DNA from: Trichodelitschia bisporula
Lineage: Eukaryota
DNA length: 64,000 nt
Assembly (NCBI GenBank): GCA_010356995.1
Contig: ML996687.1
Span: forward strand, 559,803 to 623,802
Reading direction: 5' to 3'
The notes beneath the pieces were generated by a model that saw only the letters and a list, made by a program, of their open reading frames with translations, searched no databases and was not told where the DNA came from. Below are positions 1-64,000 of the stretch, one piece after another (positions within the stretch are counted from its first letter, which is position 1; every line of letters begins with the position of its first letter). A program made the position numbers and the translations under genes.

Positions 1-1028
1 TCCAAGCCCTCTAAACGCAGTGCTTTCAGGATGGGGGCAACAGTCGGCGACTTGAGAAGAGGCGCATGAGAAATTGGCTCCTCGGTCTCGATGAGAAGAG
101 CATACAAGGGGTTGTCCGTCCACCCATAGGCGTGCAAAAGCGCGCTGTCGAGTTTGGGGAATGGTACTGCTATATCCTCTTTTACATAGTCCGAGGCTTC
201 CTGTGTGGTTCGTCGGTTCATCGCTTCATATGCCTTCCTTCCTCTGGATGCCAATTCTTCCAAGCCTTCGCTATTGGCGACAAGGGTACGACGGCGGGCG
301 GTAAACTGACGTGGTGGAATATCTTCATGCGATCCGTCCAACGGCGGAGCCTTCGAACGATGGCCTCTCTCAGGGGACCCAGGGATCTCATATATCACAG
401 GGATGTCGTTGAAGGAAACCTTGCGTCGGCGGGGCTCCAAATCATCGGGGTTCAGAGCCAGCGGGTCTTCAGTGTAACTTGGGTCCGAACTTGGTTTGAC
501 GGCGGGCTTGGGGACGAGTAGGTGAGAGAGTACAGTGGCCGCGATTTCATCTACATATGTTACTCCATCGTCATCGGCTCGCGTCGCAGGCCGAGTCGAC
601 CGAGATGCAGATCTGGCCAAAGGGGCACCGAAATCAATCATTTCCGGTGGAGAGGCCGCGATGTCCTCTACATATGTGACTCCGTCATCATCGTGTTGCT
701 TCGCAGGCCGGGCAGGCCGGGATGCAGTTCTCGCCAAAGGAAAGCCGAAGCCAGCCGTGTCCTGTACAGAGGCCGCGGTGTCCTCTACATATGTGACTCC
801 GTCATCGCCGTCTTGCTTCGCAGGCCGGGCAGACTGGGGTGCAGATCTCGCCATAGGATGGCCGAAGTCAATCACTTTCGAAAGCGGAGACTTTGATAGC
901 TCTCGCTCGGCGTCTTCATCAAGATTGAGAGACGTCGGGTCTTCAGTGGAACCTGGATTCGAGCTTGGTTCGACGGCGGGCCCAGTTTCGACCGGGTGAG
1001 AGAGTGGAGGGGCCGCGATGTCCTCCAT
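1..1028 (-). CDS. Partial hypothetical repeat-containing, probably disordered protein (runs off left window edge)
   Basis: Hand translation of the minus strand from ATG 1028 (MEDIAAPPLSHPVETG...) is open to position 1. Contains three 39-aa repeats and RRRKVSF. Absent from the ORF track because it has no stop in the window; the true start may be further upstream. Confidence 0.6.
   Translation of the reverse strand, partial: MEDIAAPPLSHPVETGPAVEPSSNPGSTEDPTSLNLDEDAERELSKSPLSKVIDFGHPMARSAPQSARPAKQDGDDGVTYVEDTAASVQDTAGFGFPLARTASRPARPAKQHDDDGVTYVEDIAASPPEMIDFGAPLARSASRSTRPATRADDDGVTYVDEIAATVLSHLLVPKPAVKPSSDPSYTEDPLALNPDDLEPRRRKVSFNDIPVIYEIPGSPERGHRSKAPPLDGSHEDIPPRQFTARRRTLVANSEGLEELASRGRKAYEAMNRRTTQEASDYVKEDIAVPFPKLDSALLHAYGWTDNPLYALLIETEEPISHAPLLKSPTVAPILKALRLEGL
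537..890. repeat. Three degenerate 117-bp tandem repeats (coding)
   Basis: ggccgcg(a/g)t(t/g)tc(a/c)tctacatatgt recurs at 537, 654 and 771 (period 117 = 39 codons). Confidence 0.9.
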
Positions 1029-59107: not shown

Positions 59108-60223
59108 GGTGTAGCAATGGATGGTGTGTCTAATAAAGGGGAATGGAGAAGAATTGGATTTGACGATGCTGGTTGTCGTGGGGGTGAAGGTGGAGGAGAA
59201 CTTTAAGGTGTTCGGAAGTGCGTGACGCGTGGTTGGCGCGTCCACCACGTACAGTATTCTGTGGCGGGGGGTGGGGAGCGTGGCGGGGCGGGGATTGGGG
59301 AGCCGACTCCATGGCCGTGGGTTTTGCTGGGCTGAAGGACAATGGCAATTGATTGTGAAATACCTCCGTACGGAATACGGATTGTACATGCAAATGCTCT
59401 ACCTCCGTATGAGGGGATTTAGAGGCGGTTTGTGATACCATTTTGGACTTTTTGATGGCTTGCGTACCAAACGCTGATGTCGACTGCCCGGAGGTATCTC
59501 CAGCCTCCCACAACTCAGATTCTTCACCCAAGAAAAATCTGAACCGAAATCACGCTTCGAAGCGGCAAGCAAGGGCCTACCGAGTGAGAGTCGCGAAAGC
59601 TCTGAATGGGTACATACCTCCCGGAAGGAAGAGAAAAGAGAGGGAATTGGTCGAGTATGCCGTATGCCACAGTCACTTCCACCGAACAGAGCAAGGCTGG
59701 GCACAAGCCTGATGTCTTATTTCCGCAAAGGCTGAAGCAAGGAGGCCCGAGACTCGAACTAAAACGATTTAACGCGTTTTTTCCAGCATCGATGACGGAA
59801 AGAATCGGGACTATCGCGAGGCTCTCGCGACGTGCTGACTGCGCACCCAGACCCTCAGTCACGCCAATGCCTTCACAGCCCAAAGCAGGAGTAAAGATGA
59901 CTCCATCAAACCCCTTCACGGCCTTCAATCCACATCTTCCACATCACAATGCCTCAGTGTCGTTCTCCATCCCCCATGGCTAAACACACGCACACTCCTA
60001 AACAAACCGTGCCTGCCAAGAAACATGTGACGGAATGCGGGGAATCACCGCCGAGGGGATCCTTTTCCGCACCGACATCCCCCCTCTCACCTCAGCACCT
60101 GAAAGCTCCACGAATTGAACCTCTGCAAGCGCTGACCGGAATCCACAATGTGAAGCATCGACGTCAACAGCTCGGCCTCGTCCCGCGCCCAAACGTGCGG
60201 TACGGTTTGCTTTCGGCCCGTTC

Positions 60224-60224
<1 letters not shown>

Positions 60225-60309
<85 letters not shown>
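60225..60309. repeat. 85-nt poly(C) homopolymer
   Basis: Uninterrupted C run directly visible. Confidence 0.95.
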
Positions 60310-60310
<1 letters not shown>

Positions 60311-60470
60311 CAATCGGAGCTCTATTCCCAGCCGTTATTCCCGGCACGCCGCCGCGACATCGTCAGCTCCCCATGCAGGAGTTTATATAGAACCGTGGCG
60401 GTCGTCGCAATAATCCTCACCTCATGCATCCTTCCTTTCACTTATAGACCGTAATACCCCATAGACTACC

Positions 60471-62537
60471 ATGCTGCGCACCCTCCCGCGGTCCCCCCGC
60501 CCCCACACCCGCCTCTTCTCCTCCCGCCGCACCTCGCCCTACGAAAGCACAATCGCGAACCTAAACATCGGCGCCCACACCCGCGTCATCTTCCAAGGCT
60601 TCACGGGGAAACAAGCTACGGCCAATGCCATTGAGTCGCTGGCATGGGGCACCAATATCGTCGGCGGCGTGAGACCCGGCAAAGAGGGCGAGCACCTGGG
60701 TCTGCCCGTGCTGCCCTCCGTCCGCCGCGCAATGGCCGAGCTGAAGCCCGACGCAACGGGTATCTACGTTGCGGCGCACCAGGCGCCGGCGGCGATTGAG
60801 GAGGCGATTGAGGCGGAGGTGCCGCTCATCGTCGCGGTCGCGGAGCACATCCCGCTCCACGACATCCTGCGGGTGCACCCCTCCCAAACCTTCCCGGCTC
60901 TCAAAATCACCAACTAACCACTCCGCCAGATCCACTCCATCCTCCAAACCCAATCCAAATCCCGCCTCGTCGGCGCCAACTCCCCCGGCATAATCTCCGC
61001 CCTCGGCAAATGCCGCATCGGCTTCCAACCCCTCCCAACCTTCTCCCCCGGCCACGTCGGCATAATCGCCAAATCCGGCACCCTGAGCTACGAAACCGTC
61101 GCGGCATTGACAAGGCAGGGCGTGGGGCAAAGCCTCTGCATCGGGATGGGCGGCGACGTCGTCGCAGGAACAGACTTCGTCGACGGCCTGCGTGTCTTCG
61201 AACACGACACCGACACCCACGCCATCATCCTCGTAGGCGAAGTCGGTGGCACGGCCGAAGAGGAGGCCGCGGAGTGGATCAAAGCGTATCGCGCCCGCAC
61301 GCCGAACCCCAAGCCGATAGCCGGCCTGGTTGGCGGGCGGACGGCCCGGCCTGGCACCGTTATGGGACATGCGGGTGCGTGGGCGGGGCCCGGTCAAGCG
61401 AGCGCGGCGGAGAAACAGCGTGTCCTGGAGGAGGCAGGCGTCGTCATGGTTGACCACCCGACGAAGTTCGGCGGCCTGATGAAGACGCTGCTTGCGCAGC
61501 GCGGTGCTCCCACCTCTGCGTCCAGCGGGGGCGGAAGCGGAACCATCCCCGCCCAGGCCCGCGGCTTCCACACCCTGCGCCGGCCGCACGTGCGCCCCGC
61601 CCCCGTGATGCAGAAACGCAGTCTCCACCTCCGCGCCGACCAAGCCGCCACCCTCCTCGCCGAGCACGGGATCCGCACCTCCGCCCTGCCCGCCGGGACT
61701 CCGCCCCGCAGCCTCGTGCTGACAATCGACCGGACCATGCGCTCACCCGTGCTCATCGCCTCTTCCGGCACCGGGCCTGCTACACATACCCCCTTCTCCT
61801 ACGCCGGCGGCCCGTCGCCGAGCGAAGCCATGGCCGCAGTGCGCGCGCTGGATCTCGACACAGCCACACCGGCCGCGGCAGATGCACTAGAGCTGATCGT
61901 CGCGCTGTGGGGGCTGTTTCGGCAGTACGAGGGCATCGAGCTGCGATCCCAGGTAGGCGTCGCGGCGGGGAAGCTGCTGGTTGCGGAGCCCGAGTTCACG
62001 TTCGACGACGCGGCGTTCCGGTCGAGCGGGCGGCATGCGGAGCTACATGGGCAGCGGGACGTGACGGGTGTTGATCCGATGGAGCTTGCAGGCGAGGCAG
62101 CGGGGATCGTGTACGTGAAGCTCGACGGGGAGGACCGGAATATCGGGACCGTGGTCAATGGCGCTGGGCTGGCGATGAACACGGTTGACGCGCTAGAGGC
62201 GCAAGTTGGTGGTCTTGCGACGAATTTTCTGGACACGGGTGGGAAGGCGACGAGTGAGACTGTCAAACGGAGTTTTGAGCTTGTGCTTGCGGATCCGAGG
62301 GTTAAGGTTGTGTTTGTGAATATTTTTGGCGGGTTGACGTTGGGGGATATGATTGCCCGGGGAGTGGTTATGGCGATGAGGGAGTTGGAGGTTCATGTGC
62401 CGGTTGTGGTGAGGATTCGGGGGACGAGGGAGGAGGAGGGTCAGGCTGTGATACGGGAGAGTGGGTTGAAGGTTTTTGCGTATGATGGGTTTGAGGAGGC
62501 GGCGCGGAAGGTGGTTGAGTTGGCCAATCGGTCCTGA
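60471..62537 (+). CDS. Fused succinyl-CoA synthetase-like alpha+beta protein (~669 aa)
   Basis: Alpha: RVIFQGFTGK, LVGANSPG, KSGTLSYE, GQSLCIGMGGD, GEVGG, MGHAGA. In the same frame, beta: IGTVVNGAGLAMNT, NFLDTGG, VNIFGG, VVVRIRGT. One intron 60873-60929. Confidence 0.92.
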
Positions 62538-62977
62538 ATGGGGGTTGCATAGCGTTCCTGTTGGGGATAGAGCGGTACTGAGGCTTGTATGGCTGCTCTT
62601 TGGCCGTGGGGGCCAAATATGAACTTGTATATGATGCATCTCGCGATTCGCGCTGGAGGCAAAAATGTGCTCACTGCAGGAGCCTTAACTGGCCTGATAT
62701 ATGCCAGAGTTGATGTTTTGGCTTCCCTATTCCTCACATGTAGTCGCCGGCTCCCGCCCAGTAAAGTGACATATCTTGCAGATGAATCTCAATGTACGCC
62801 TCCAAAAGCGCTGCAGCCAAAACTCGCCGTTCATTTTCCGCATCTCAACCTTCCCAGTTGGGTAACCGAGAGTTTGGCCATCACCGGTCACCTGACAACG
62901 CGCAAATGCGCGACATGAAATTTGATATCCCCCCCTCATCCCTACCACCAGCCTTCCCCGTCCGCAATTCCCACAAT

Positions 62978-64000
62978 ATGGACGACTTCACCCACGCAAC
63001 AGAAGCCTACCTCTCCTGGCTCCGCGCCTCCGGCATAACCATAAGCCCCAAAATCCACCTCGCCGACCTACGCTCCCGCAACGCCAGCCGCGGCGTCGTC
63101 GCGCTGTCCAACATCGCGCCCGACGAGGAACTCTTCCGCATCCCCCGCTCCATCATTCTAACCCCGTCCTCCCTCCCTTCCCTCCCCGCCGACGCCGACC
63201 CCTGGACCGGGCTCATCCTCTCGCTAATCGCAGCACACAATGCCGGGCCCGCGAGTCCCTGGGCGCCGTATCTCGCCGTCCTGCCCCCGCTGGAGGCGTT
63301 CAACACGCTGCTGTTCTGGACTGAGGGCGAGCTGGCGGAGCTCCAGGCCAGCCCGGTGCTTGGCAGGATTGGGGCCGCTGAGGCGCGGGAGATGATTGCC
63401 GAGCGTGTGGTCCCGGTGATTGAGGCTGAGCCTGCGAGGTATGGGTACGCAGCTTCGCCGGGGCGGGACGAGATCTTCGCGACTGCGAACCGTTTTGCTA
63501 GCATCATCATGGCGTACGCATTCGACATCGAACGCGACCCGGCGGAGCGGCAGCCCGACGAGGAGGGGTATGTGACGGAGGACGAGGACGCGGAATTGCC
63601 GAAGGGCATGGTGCCGCTGGCGGACGCGCTGAATGCGGATGGCGAGCGGAATAATGTTTCCTTTCCAAACCCCGTTTCGTATTCTCTTTGGCTGATACAG
63701 CTAGGCGCGCTTGTTCTACGAGCCCGATGCCCTGGTGATGAAGGCTATCAAGCCGATCCCCGCGGGGGAAGAGTGTCTAAACGACTACGGCGAGCTGCCA
63801 CGCGCGGAGGTCCTGCGGCGGTACGGTTTCGTCAGCCCGACATATGCGGCGTGGGATGTGGCGGAGGTTGAGCAATCGCTTATCGACAGCGTTCTCCGCG
63901 CCGGTGGCATCGACATTCCTTTCTACACCTTCGCAGCCGAGCGGGTACGTCTCCCGCGCACATCTTACTCACTAACTCAACCGCCGCAGAACGCTTTGAT
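62978..64000 (+). CDS. SET-domain protein-lysine methyltransferase (RKM4/SETD6-like), partial
   Basis: DLRSRNASRGVVA, ELFRIPR, WAPYLAVLP, IMAYAFD, MVPLADALNAD, then after an intron NDYGELPRAEVLRRYGFV; continues beyond window. Confidence 0.88.

What the first reader, a model, noticed from the sequence alone, without database searches (positions are those of the whole stretch)
60471..62537. SCS alpha-beta fusion with an internal mitochondrial-presequence-like linker: candidate MPP-processed polyprotein
Seen: one reading frame carries a complete SCS alpha (with phospho-His MGHAGA, 61362) followed by a beta-like domain. The linker (~61495-61632, TSASSGGGSGTIPAQARGFHTLRRPHVRPAPVMQKR-SLHL) is Arg-rich, has no acidic residues, and ends in KR-S-L-H just where a mature beta subunit starts (typically ...R-N-L-S-I/L-H-E). 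Known: canonical eukaryotic SCS uses separate alpha and beta genes, MPP cuts at R-2/R-3 sites, and fungal mitochondrial polyproteins such as Arg5,6 are split by MPP. Inference: this is a second, uncharacterised SCS-like system made as a tandem precursor and possibly cleaved in the matrix to give 1:1 subunits. I recall similar fusions among ascomycete annotations but know of no functional study.
Basis: partly seen in the sequence, partly recalled or inferred. Interest (0 to 1): 0.85.

Follow-up and report, generated by a model that had tools for sequence, protein, structure and literature searches.

The report
Fused, truncated succinyl-CoA synthetase paralogue
A fungal gene fuses the two subunits of a succinyl-CoA-synthetase-like enzyme through a leftover mitochondrial import signal that may be cut out after import, and the second subunit has lost its ATP/GTP-binding part, so it cannot work as the normal Krebs-cycle enzyme.

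Summary
Assembled contigs of two public runs skip the 57-nt GT..AG intron. They also run unbroken through alpha, linker and beta, so this is one transcript.

The alpha part is complete, including the phospho-His loop. The beta part is not. It lacks about 85-95 residues of the ATP-grasp, including the Lys and GGRGKG nucleotide-binding elements. The remaining site-II residues are unconserved, while the CoA-ligase domain is nearly invariant.

The fusion is conserved in Dothideo-, Eurotio-, Leotio- and Sordariomycetes, and in Mycena.

The linker is disordered in the model (pLDDT <50), Arg-rich and almost acid-free. It carries two near-invariant motifs, Q-x-R-G-Φ-H-T and Q-x-R-x-L. The second aligns with the presequence/mature junction (Q-x-R-x|L-S-L-H-E-Y) of stand-alone fungal beta precursors, and the folded beta part starts exactly there. 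The linker is therefore most likely a retained beta presequence.

Excision by MPP at both motifs, as in yeast Atp25, is plausible but untested. The strict yeast MPP consensus is not met.

I found no published study of this family. Its function is unknown, but it is probably a nucleotide-independent site-I reaction.

The parts
60426..62682 (+). Extent of the transcript as covered by assembled contigs of runs X1 and X2
   Evidence: pieces at 60426-60537, 60477/60508-60871 and 60929-62670/62682. One 2118-nt and one 2137-nt contig bridge the intron and the linker.
60471..60872 (+). Exon 1 (residues 1-134): N-terminal presequence and the CoA-binding domain of the alpha part
   Evidence: PF02629 CoA_binding covers residues 36-126, E 3e-16.
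60471..60518 (+). N-terminal mitochondrial-type presequence (residues 1-16, up to R14-L15-F16|S17-S18)
   Evidence: pLDDT <50 for residues 1-20. The orthologues listed mostly have Arg/Ser-rich N-termini ending in the conserved F-S-(T/S)-S. F16 and S17 are conserved in 90% or more. The cleavage position is inferred.
60873..60929 (+). Intron, 57 nt, GT..AG, with an in-frame TAA
   Evidence: Sequence. Contigs of X1 and X2 skip 57 nt with GT..AG ends (table 5). The spliced product equals P0003.
60930..62537 (+). Exon 2 (residues 135-669 plus the stop codon)
61047..61487 (+). Alpha C-terminal (flavodoxin-like) domain with the phosphohistidine loop
   Evidence: PF13607 covers residues 174-320. VIA-align: model 23..331 against human SCS alpha 2..309, Z 26.8.
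61368..61370 (+). His281 codon, the phosphohistidine of the G-H-A-G-A loop
   Evidence: G280, H281, G283 and A284 are invariant in 71 orthologues. This residue aligns with the catalytic His of human SCS alpha. The role of His246-alpha is taken from PMC10342173.
61524..61622 (+). Disordered Arg-rich linker (residues 333-365), read as a retained beta presequence
   Evidence: pLDDT <50 for residues 333-363. Composition. The best internal presequence-like 20-aa window lies here in 61 of 71 orthologues.
61554..61574 (+). Linker motif 1, Q-A-R-G-F-H-T (residues 343-349); candidate upstream MPP site (R345-G-F|H)
   Evidence: Q343 in 66, R345 in 69, H348 in 70 and T349 in 68 of 71. A conserved R-x-Φ starts at this column in 68 of 71.
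61611..61625 (+). Linker motif 2, Q-K-R-S-L (residues 362-366); homologue of the beta presequence/mature junction and candidate MPP site (R364-S|L366)
   Evidence: Q362 in 64, R364 in 69 and L366 in 70 of 71. It aligns with Q-x-R-x|L-S-L-H-E-Y of stand-alone beta precursors. The folded domain starts at residue 366.
61623..62534 (+). Beta-type part (residues 366-669): a remnant ATP-grasp scaffold plus the CoA-ligase domain
   Evidence: VIA-align: model 366..669 against E. coli beta 1..388, 295 residues aligned, Z 25.6. HMMER: query residues 397-666 against human SUCLA2 chain residues 120-394.
61665..61718 (+). Short connector (residues 380-397) standing in place of the deleted nucleotide-binding part of the ATP-grasp
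   Evidence: The gap lies between residues 380 and 381 and corresponds to residues 16-110 of bacterial-type beta P0340, which include V-V-K-S-Q and G-G-R-G-K-G. Canonical sequences hold a median of 85 residues there; fusions hold a median of 0.
62151..62516 (+). Beta C-terminal CoA-ligase domain (site I half)
   Evidence: PF00549 covers residues 542-663, E 2e-44. Many columns are invariant, for example N544-G-A-G-L-A549, F567-L-D-T-G-G-K-A-T575 and N598, F600, G601, G602.

Best explanation
This is a nuclear, one-intron gene for a mitochondrial tandem precursor. It arose inside fungi by joining a duplicated SCS alpha gene to a duplicated beta precursor gene, with the beta presequence kept as the linker.

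Shown: there is one spliced transcript. The alpha module is complete, with the phospho-His loop and the Glu208-alpha equivalent (E238). The beta module keeps the CoA-ligase domain but lacks about 85-95 residues of the ATP-grasp that carry the nucleotide-binding elements. The linker is disordered in the model, basic and acid-poor. It ends in the same Q-x-R-x|L junction as stand-alone beta precursors.

Inferred: after import the matrix processing peptidase removes the N-terminal presequence and excises the internal presequence by cutting at both conserved R-x-Φ motifs (about R345-G|F and R364-S|L), as shown for yeast Atp25. This would give alpha' (about 36 kDa) and beta' (about 33 kDa) in 1:1 amounts, and these would assemble like an SCS heterodimer.

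Inferred: the enzyme has only 'site I' (CoA, acyl or carboxylate, phosphate and phospho-His). It therefore cannot couple to ADP or GDP and must carry out some nucleotide-independent acyl-CoA/acyl-phosphate/phospho-His chemistry on an unknown acid.
For: Gene and transcript. The contigs are 2118 and 2137 nt long, skip the 57-nt GT..AG intron and bridge the linker.

Family: the top 120 hits are fusion-family proteins at 53-63% identity. Most are 600-760 aa, and about a dozen are shorter models of 513-568 aa that lack the CoA_binding hit. They come from four ascomycete classes plus Mycena, and the tree follows the classes.

Origin: the alpha part scores best against human and pig mitochondrial alpha (E 3e-79) rather than E. 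coli (1.5e-68). The beta part scores best against human SUCLA2 (6e-44) rather than E. coli (1e-34). Its consensus is co-linear with fungal stand-alone beta.

Loss of site II:
- There is no ATP-grasp_2 hit.
- Only SucC profile positions 154-386 of 388 are matched.
- 295 of 388 residues align structurally.
- The gap covers V-V-K-S-Q and G-G-R-G-K-G.
- At the E-I-N-P and L-D-x-K columns the fusions keep E in 39, N in 4 and D in 12 of 71. The canonical set keeps them in 51, 43 and 43 of 51.

Site I kept: H281, E238 and the CoA-ligase loops are invariant. Between fusion and canonical beta, 55 conserved columns are identical and 10 are conserved but different.

Linker:
- pLDDT is below 50 for residues 333-363.
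- The best internal presequence-like window lies in the linker in 61 of 71 orthologues, with a mean score of 12.4. The N-termini score 13.3 and the rest of the protein 6.9.
- Only three conserved R-x-Φ columns exist in the whole protein. Two are in the linker and the third is a buried strand.
- The junction is homologous to that of 45 beta precursors.

[quoted passage not shown] Arg5,6 and other composite precursors are described in PMC8734313 (passages).
Against: No experiment or proteomic datum on cleavage was available. TargetP, MitoFates and iMLP could not be run.

The strict yeast consensus [R][AFR][FLY]|[AKLS][HSTQ] is met in the linker in only 1 of 71 sequences. His at +1 in both motifs is not in that consensus.

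H348 and T349 are more conserved than MPP recognition alone would need. This hints at another or an additional role.

For this window's own protein the linker's composition score is barely above the next best internal window (7.6 against 6.4).

A linker of 33 or more disordered residues could simply tether the two halves, so cleavage is not structurally required.

I could not show that the same organism has canonical SCS genes, because no genome is held. T. bisporula was not among the 120 listed relatives of P0313.
Confidence: 0.5

Rival explanations
1. The protein stays a single uncleaved chain. The relic presequence is kept as a flexible tether. It may also serve as an internal MTS-like import or chaperone-binding element, or as a basic segment with a role in the mature enzyme, for example in binding phosphate or a partner.
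For: H348 and T349 are conserved in 70 and 68 of 71 sequences, beyond what MPP usually needs. The strict MPP consensus is not met. The linker is long enough to tether the halves. Many fusion enzymes, for example ATP-citrate lyase with its SCS-like modules, work uncleaved (PDB titles).
Against: The linker is modelled as disordered and not docked. Its end keeps the exact presequence junction of free beta precursors, and the beta fold starts at the predicted +1 residue. Depletion of acidic residues has been held across four classes. A plain tether would not need that.
Confidence: 0.35
2. It is a catalytically dead or decaying SCS paralogue, that is, a pseudoenzyme with at most a structural or regulatory role.
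For: The nucleotide site is lost and the site-II residues drift. NCBIfam scores are far below the equivalog cut-offs (191 bits against 336 and 370).
Against: Conservation is strong over large evolutionary distances. Mean column identity is 55%, and the phospho-His loop, E238 and the CoA-ligase loops are invariant. There are family-specific invariant substitutions such as N551, and K573 is invariant in the fusions. The gene is covered by spliced contigs. A regulatory role that still needs site I is not excluded.
Confidence: 0.1
3. Two separate genes or transcripts (alpha and beta) have been wrongly merged.
For: None in this window. In the databases many short gene models of the family exist.
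Against: The frame is continuous from 60930 to 62537. Contigs of two runs bridge 60477/60508 to 62670/62682 with only the 57-nt joint. The short models come mostly from short contigs or lack exon 1. Met361 just before motif 2 is not conserved.
Confidence: 0.02

Closest known systems
Canonical mitochondrial succinyl-CoA synthetase (human SUCLG1/SUCLA2, PDB 6G4Q; pig GTP-specific enzyme, PDB 2FP4; E. coli SucCD, PDB 1SCU/2SCU)
   Same: The alpha fold matches (TM 0.87, Z 26.8). The phospho-His loop, the Glu208-alpha equivalent and the beta CoA-ligase domain are present. The start of beta aligns with residue 1.
   Different: The subunits are fused in alpha-to-beta order. About 85-95 residues of the beta ATP-grasp are missing and the site-II residues are unconserved. 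Scores fall below the NCBIfam equivalog cut-offs. Several site-I-domain columns carry family-specific residues.
Yeast Atp25 composite precursor (PMC5063612; abstract and passages read)
   Same: Two mitochondrial precursors are fused in tandem. An MTS-like stretch lies between the two parts and is flanked by two candidate R-x-Φ sites. In Atp25 MPP cuts at both sites and splices the internal MTS out.
   Different: The proteins are unrelated. Cleavage is demonstrated for Atp25 and only inferred here. The motifs here do not fit the strict consensus.
Arg5,6 of yeast / arg-6 of Neurospora (PMC8734313; abstract and passages read)
   Same: It is a fungal mitochondrial polyprotein of two enzymes that act together. 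It has an internal iMTS-like segment and an R-2 type site at the junction, and it is conserved across fungi.
   Different: The Arg5,6 halves are two distinct enzymes. Here the halves are the two subunits of one enzyme. Arg5,6 has a single internal site in the passages read, while here there are two conserved motifs.
ATP-citrate lyase and citryl-CoA synthetase (PDB 6HXH, 6HXQ)
   Same: Both are SCS-superfamily members, and animal ACLY has its SCS-like modules fused in one chain.
   Different: ACLY has the order beta then alpha, a full ATP-grasp and a citrate-synthase-like domain. Its match to the alpha part here is much weaker (Z about 20, 21% identity).
Fused NDP-forming acyl-CoA synthetases (acetate-CoA and 4-hydroxybutyrate-CoA ligases, ADP-forming)
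   Same: Alpha- and beta-type domains lie in one polypeptide, and the chemistry goes through phospho-His.
   Different: The NCBIfam matches are very weak (24-60 bits against cut-offs of 567-1300). Those enzymes have a different domain order and keep their ATP-grasp.

Membership tests
Succinyl-CoA synthetase (SCS, alpha/beta) | Alpha subunit: CoA-binding Rossmann domain plus a C-terminal domain with the phosphohistidine loop | tested here: met
   PF02629 and PF13607 are hit. SucD profile positions 5-289 of 291 are covered. The G-H-A-G-A loop is invariant. Z 26.8 to human alpha.
Succinyl-CoA synthetase (SCS, alpha/beta) | Beta subunit C-terminal CoA-ligase domain that forms site I with alpha | tested here: met
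   PF00549, E 2e-44. The domain aligns with human SUCLA2 to chain residue 394.
Succinyl-CoA synthetase (SCS, alpha/beta) | Beta subunit N-terminal ATP-grasp with a nucleotide site (Lys, the G-G-R-G-K loop and the Glu197-beta region) | tested here: not met
   There is no PF08442 hit. The segment holding V-V-K-S-Q and G-G-R-G-K-G is absent in all 71 fusions (median 0 residues against 85 in canonical sequences). The E, N and D columns are unconserved. The role of Glu197-beta is taken from PMC10342173.
Succinyl-CoA synthetase (SCS, alpha/beta) | Score above the curated equivalog cut-offs (NCBIfam SucD and SucC) | tested here: not met
   SucD scores 191.3 bits (exon 2) and 89.8 bits (exon 1) against a cut-off of 336. 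SucC scores 191 against 370. The models are built for bacteria and archaea and were given the exons separately, so this row is weak.
Succinyl-CoA synthetase (SCS, alpha/beta) | Catalyses succinate + CoA + NTP <-> succinyl-CoA + NDP + Pi | not testable with these tools
   This needs enzymology.
MPP-processed composite mitochondrial precursors (Arg5,6; Atp25; Etp1; Rsm22-Cox11) | N-terminal matrix-targeting presequence | tested here: met
   The orthologue N-termini listed are mostly Arg/Ser-rich. Three aberrant ones were left out of the training set. pLDDT is below 50 for residues 1-20. This rests on composition only; no TargetP was run.
MPP-processed composite mitochondrial precursors (Arg5,6; Atp25; Etp1; Rsm22-Cox11) | Internal presequence-like segment exactly at the junction of the two parts | tested here: met
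   (61 of 71). The segment is homologous to the N-terminal presequence junction of free beta precursors.
MPP-processed composite mitochondrial precursors (Arg5,6; Atp25; Etp1; Rsm22-Cox11) | MPP recognition motif at the junction | tested here: inconclusive
   A loose R(-3)/Φ(-1), or equally R-2, pattern is conserved at two places (68 and 69 of 71). The strict consensus quoted in PMC5063612 is met in 1 of 71.
MPP-processed composite mitochondrial precursors (Arg5,6; Atp25; Etp1; Rsm22-Cox11) | Demonstrated cleavage into two mature proteins in the matrix | not testable with these tools
   This needs tagging, import assays or N-terminomics.
ATP-citrate lyase / citryl-CoA synthetase | Full ATP-grasp, a citrate-binding domain, and (in ACLY) a citryl-CoA lyase module in beta-to-alpha order | tested here: not met
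   No PF16114 or citrate-synthase-type hit was found. The order here is alpha to beta. The matches are weaker (E 1e-11 to 1e-31; Z about 20).

The most novel reading that the evidence does not exclude
The family may be a new kind of SCS-superfamily enzyme, a 1:1 alpha'/beta' pair released from a polyprotein by excision of an internal presequence. It would work without its own nucleotide site. One option is that it shuttles CoA between two acids through acyl-phosphate and phospho-His intermediates, a CoA-transferase by a ligase mechanism. Another is that its His281 is charged or discharged by an outside phosphodonor or acceptor such as mitochondrial nucleoside-diphosphate kinase. A link between SCS and mtNDPK is discussed in PMC10342173 (passages).
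Probability: 0.2. Interest if true: 0.8.

Novelty: new variant of a known kind. Interest (0 to 1): 0.62.

Why it matters
If the linker is really excised, this would be a widely conserved MPP-processed polyprotein. It would also be the first one I know of that delivers the two subunits of one enzyme in fixed 1:1 amounts. The origin of the internal signal would be plain to see, since it is the old presequence of the downstream partner. That makes it a clean natural test case for how gene fusions between mitochondrial precursors arise and how MPP recognises internal sites.

Separately, an SCS-type enzyme has kept its phospho-His/CoA site under strong selection across at least four classes of filamentous ascomycetes while discarding its ATP/GTP site. 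This points to unknown acyl-CoA chemistry in the mitochondria of many plant- and human-associated fungi, including Aspergillus, Penicillium, Alternaria and Botryosphaeria.

Current annotations such as 'succinyl-CoA ligase subunit alpha' are misleading for metabolic models.

Tried and rejected
1. Whole-genome search for canonical SCS genes in the same organism. No genome is held (errors). It therefore stays open whether this is a 'second' system in T. bisporula itself. Rhizodiscina lignyota has both a fusion (P0008) and a stand-alone full-length beta (P0313).

2. Search with the beta part alone to reach canonical beta subunits. All 120 listed hits were fragments or short gene models of the fusion family.

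3. Search with P0313. T. bisporula is not among the 120 listed. The P0313 group is patchy in its taxa and may be an accessory paralogue rather than the housekeeping beta. I used it only as a set of full-length beta-type precursors with presequences.

4. The Fusarium cluster around P0329/P0398 first looked like a split form of the fusion. It is a different beta-like paralogue, and the 706-aa model merges it with a neighbouring membrane protein.

5. The look-up of sequencing runs listed no RNA holder. The kind of the two runs is a guess. I rely only on what their contigs bridge and make no claim from depth.

6. Literature searches. No paper on this fusion was found.
- The 'succinyl-CoA synthetase-like protein' in PMC9031566 is BBA_8607, listed beside ATP-citrate synthase subunit 1, and is apparently another protein.
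- One search used an A. fumigatus locus tag guessed from memory and found nothing.
- Subscription journals and supplements were not searched.

7. Earlier scan notes: nothing on this family.

8. The strict MPP consensus scan was essentially negative in the linker.

9. The maximum-likelihood tree did not finish in time, so a FastTree tree was used instead.

10. Gene neighbourhood: P5C reductase, mitochondrial ribosomal DAP3, an amino-acid permease and an LRR protein. There is no metabolic cluster and no clue to function.

11. Complex prediction was not used. The two halves would pass by likeness to solved SCS structures.
Full report
**Observation**

The finding's coordinates match a real gene. 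An ATG at 60471 opens a frame that meets a TAA at 60915-60917. Removing a 57-nt intron (60873-60929; GT..AG, CTAAC branch site) joins it in phase to the long frame that ends at 62537.

The spliced product is 669 aa. It is 100% identical to database protein P0003, which NCBI names 'succinyl-CoA synthetase-like protein [Trichodelitschia bisporula]'. This species is a Dothideomycete of the order Phaeotrichales.

Two public runs hold the stretch (their kind is only guessed to be RNA). Their assembled contigs of 2118 and 2137 nt skip exactly these 57 nt with GT..AG ends. Otherwise they are co-linear with the window from 60477/60508 to 62670/62682. One spliced molecule therefore covers alpha, linker and beta, and no further exon is spliced in.

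MGHAGA starts at 61362 as stated.

**Anatomy**

Pfam finds three domains:
- CoA_binding at residues 36-126.
- The SCS flavodoxin-like domain at residues 174-320.
- Ligase_CoA at residues 542-663.

There is no ATP-grasp_2 hit. NCBIfam's SucD model is covered over positions 5-289 of 291, but the SucC model only over 154-386 of 388.

An AlphaFold2 model built on 71 orthologues has mean pLDDT 82 and pTM 0.83. Only residues 1-20, 156-160 and 333-363 fall below pLDDT 50.

Structural comparison gives the following:
- The alpha part superposes on human SCS alpha (model 23..331 against chain 2..309, Z 26.8).
- The beta part superposes on E. coli SCS beta from its very first residue (model 366..669 against chain 1..388).
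- Only 295 of the 388 beta residues have a counterpart.

**Missing ATP-grasp segment**

Sequence alignments place the missing piece. After the first strand and helix of beta (residues 366-380), the fusion jumps straight to the L-x-x-T-I-D-R strand.

The gap corresponds to residues 16-110 of a bacterial-type beta (P0340). That stretch holds V-V-K-S-Q and G-G-R-G-K-G. The 51 canonical sequences have a median of 85 residues there (range 74-112). The 71 fusions have a median of 0 and at most 5.

Downstream, the columns of the E-I-N-P and L-D-x-K motifs also differ. The first contains the Glu197-beta that stabilises the phospho-His at the nucleotide site, according to passages of PMC10342173.

| Column | Fusions (of 71) | Canonical (of 51) |
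|---|---|---|
| E of E-I-N-P | 39 | 51 |
| N of E-I-N-P | 4 | 43 |
| D of L-D-x-K | 12 | 43 |

The specific nucleotide and Mg contacts of these residues are recalled knowledge and were not tested here.

The rest of the catalytic machinery is well kept:
- The phospho-His loop (G280, H281, G283, A284), E238 (the Glu208-alpha equivalent) and the glycine-rich loops of the CoA-ligase domain are invariant in 71 orthologues.
- Between fusions and canonical beta, 55 conserved columns are identical and 10 are conserved but different, for example N551 in place of Ala.
- K573 is invariant in the fusions.

The family has thus kept site I under selection and abandoned site II.

**Distribution and origin**

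The top 120 hits to exon 2 are fusion-family proteins at 53-63% identity. Most are 600-760 aa, and about a dozen shorter models (513-568 aa) lack the CoA_binding hit. They come from Dothideomycetes, Eurotiomycetes (Aspergillus, Penicillium, Emergomyces), Leotiomycetes and many Mycena species. Sordariales have the family too.

A FastTree tree recovers Eurotiomycetes, Leotiomycetes and Mycena each as one group.

- The alpha part is closest to mitochondrial alpha of mammals (E 3e-79, against 1.5e-68 for E. coli).
- The beta part is closest to human ADP-forming beta (6e-44, against about 1e-34 for E. coli).
- The beta consensus is co-linear with fungal stand-alone beta-type proteins.

The simplest history is a duplication of mitochondrial alpha and beta precursor genes within fungi, followed by fusion and then loss of the nucleotide subdomains. 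The order of these events was not tested.

**The linker**

In 71 orthologues the core from Q343 to L366 is 22-34 residues long, with a mean of 28.

| Measure | Linker core | Family-wide |
|---|---|---|
| Asp+Glu | 0.9% | 10.4% |
| Arg+Lys | 24.3% | 10.8% |

Of the 71 cores, 55 have no acidic residue, 14 have one and 2 have two.

Seven columns in this disordered stretch are nearly invariant:
- Motif 1: Q343 (66 of 71), R345 (69), H348 (70) and T349 (68).
- Motif 2: Q362 (64), R364 (69) and L366 (70).

Both motifs read Q-x-R-x-Φ-H.

I trained a composition log-odds score on the family's own N-terminal presequences. Three aberrant N-termini were left out, which gave 1853 training residues. This score puts the best internal 20-residue window in the linker in 61 of 71 proteins. 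The mean scores are 12.4 in the linker, 13.3 at the N-termini and 6.9 elsewhere. For this window's own protein the margin is small (7.6 against 6.4).

Across the whole alignment only three columns carry a conserved R-x-[FLYMI]. One is R38, which lies in a buried strand. The other two are R345 and R364.

**Where the linker comes from**

I took the relatives of P0313 that were full length (395-470 aa), began with Met and had a recognisable start of the mature part. That left 45 of the 120 retrieved. P0313 itself is annotated as the mitochondrial ADP-forming beta subunit of Rhizodiscina lignyota.

In these 45 the presequence ends Q-x-R-x just before L-S-L-H-E-Y. R is at -2 in 44 of 45 and Q at -4 in 41 of 45. 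Bacterial-type beta subunits begin at that L/M-x-I-H-E position.

Motif 2 of the fusion aligns with this junction without gaps, and the modelled beta fold begins at L366. The end of the linker is therefore the old presequence/mature boundary of a beta precursor. The core of the linker is also about the length of one such presequence (most of the 45 are about 23-26 residues).

**Is it cut?**

This cannot be decided here.

In favour:
- The presequence character and the R-2 type junction have been maintained across classes, which a plain tether would not require.
- The second motif, Q-x-R-G-Φ-H-T, repeats the pattern of the first and lies 10-22 residues upstream of it.
- Yeast Atp25 shows exactly this design. 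It consists of two precursors fused in tandem, and its internal MTS is removed by MPP cuts at two sites (PMC5063612, abstract and passages).
- Arg5,6 is another example of internal MPP processing conserved across fungi. The composite precursors listed in the passages I read do not include any SCS protein (PMC8734313, abstract and passages).

Against:
- The strict yeast consensus quoted in PMC5063612 is met in the linker in 1 of 71 sequences.
- His at +1 is unusual.
- H348 and T349 are more conserved than a protease site needs.
- The linker is long enough to serve as a tether.

I put excision at about one in two, an uncleaved fusion at about one in three, and the remainder on other outcomes.

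**Function**

Without the ATP-grasp nucleotide site the protein should not perform the NDP/NTP-coupled step. The conserved site I would still allow acyl-CoA + Pi <-> acyl-phosphate + CoA and transfer of the phosphate to His281.

What happens next is open. It could be hydrolysis, transfer of CoA to a second acid by running the half-reaction backwards, or exchange of the phosphate with another protein such as NDP kinase. The gene's neighbours give no hint: P5C reductase, mitochondrial ribosomal DAP3, an amino-acid permease and an LRR protein.

**Novelty**

The fusion is annotated in hundreds of genomes under SCS-type names. Eight full-text searches found no study of it. Subscription journals and supplements were not covered.

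I found no prior description of the loss of the nucleotide site, of the two conserved linker motifs, or of the linker's homology to the beta presequence junction. I class it as a new variant of known kinds, namely the SCS superfamily and the MPP-type composite precursors.

Noticed in passing
window 60225-60309: An uninterrupted run of 85 C lies about 160 nt upstream of the start codon, in the promoter region. The contigs of both runs break at it (60215-60319). It could be a real homopolymer or an assembly artefact.
   Followed up: no
alignment A1 / tree: All 11 Mycena (Basidiomycota) proteins form one group (support 100). This group is nested among Botryosphaeriales-type Dothideomycetes (Saccharata, Phyllosticta, Botryosphaeria, Lasiodiplodia, Diplodia; support 96-97). 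This suggests transfer of the gene from an ascomycete into Mycena. The tree is a FastTree tree only and the root was not tested.
   Followed up: partly
proteins P0316 (Cordyceps), P0324 (Fusarium oxysporum), P0329/P0396 (Fusarium graminearum FGSG_13240): These are stand-alone beta-like paralogues in Hypocreales. P0316 and P0324 have their own N-terminal presequence and keep roughly full length. All of them lack the G-G-R-G-K loop. This would be a second, independent case of SCS beta losing its nucleotide site.
   Followed up: partly
cluster of P0053 (Aspergillus fumigatus): Some A. fumigatus gene models of 890-903 aa sit in the same cluster as a 280-aa member named adenylylsulfate kinase. The long models may merge the fusion with a neighbouring gene, and other models are truncated. 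Annotation of this family is unstable, and the names given ('subunit alpha', 'CoA-ligase', 'ATP-grasp fold subdomain 2') are inconsistent.
   Followed up: no
window 62792-64000 (+): The downstream gene is covered by a separate contig and has no Pfam hit at E <= 0.001 for the 359-aa frame. From memory, its C-terminal part looks like a SET-domain lysine methyltransferase. This was not tested.
   Followed up: no
tree, row P0003: The T. bisporula protein has the longest terminal branch of the 71 (0.61 against a median of 0.17). This copy is the most diverged member sampled. That fits its weaker linker score and its Q-A-R in place of the usual Q-R/K-R.
   Followed up: no
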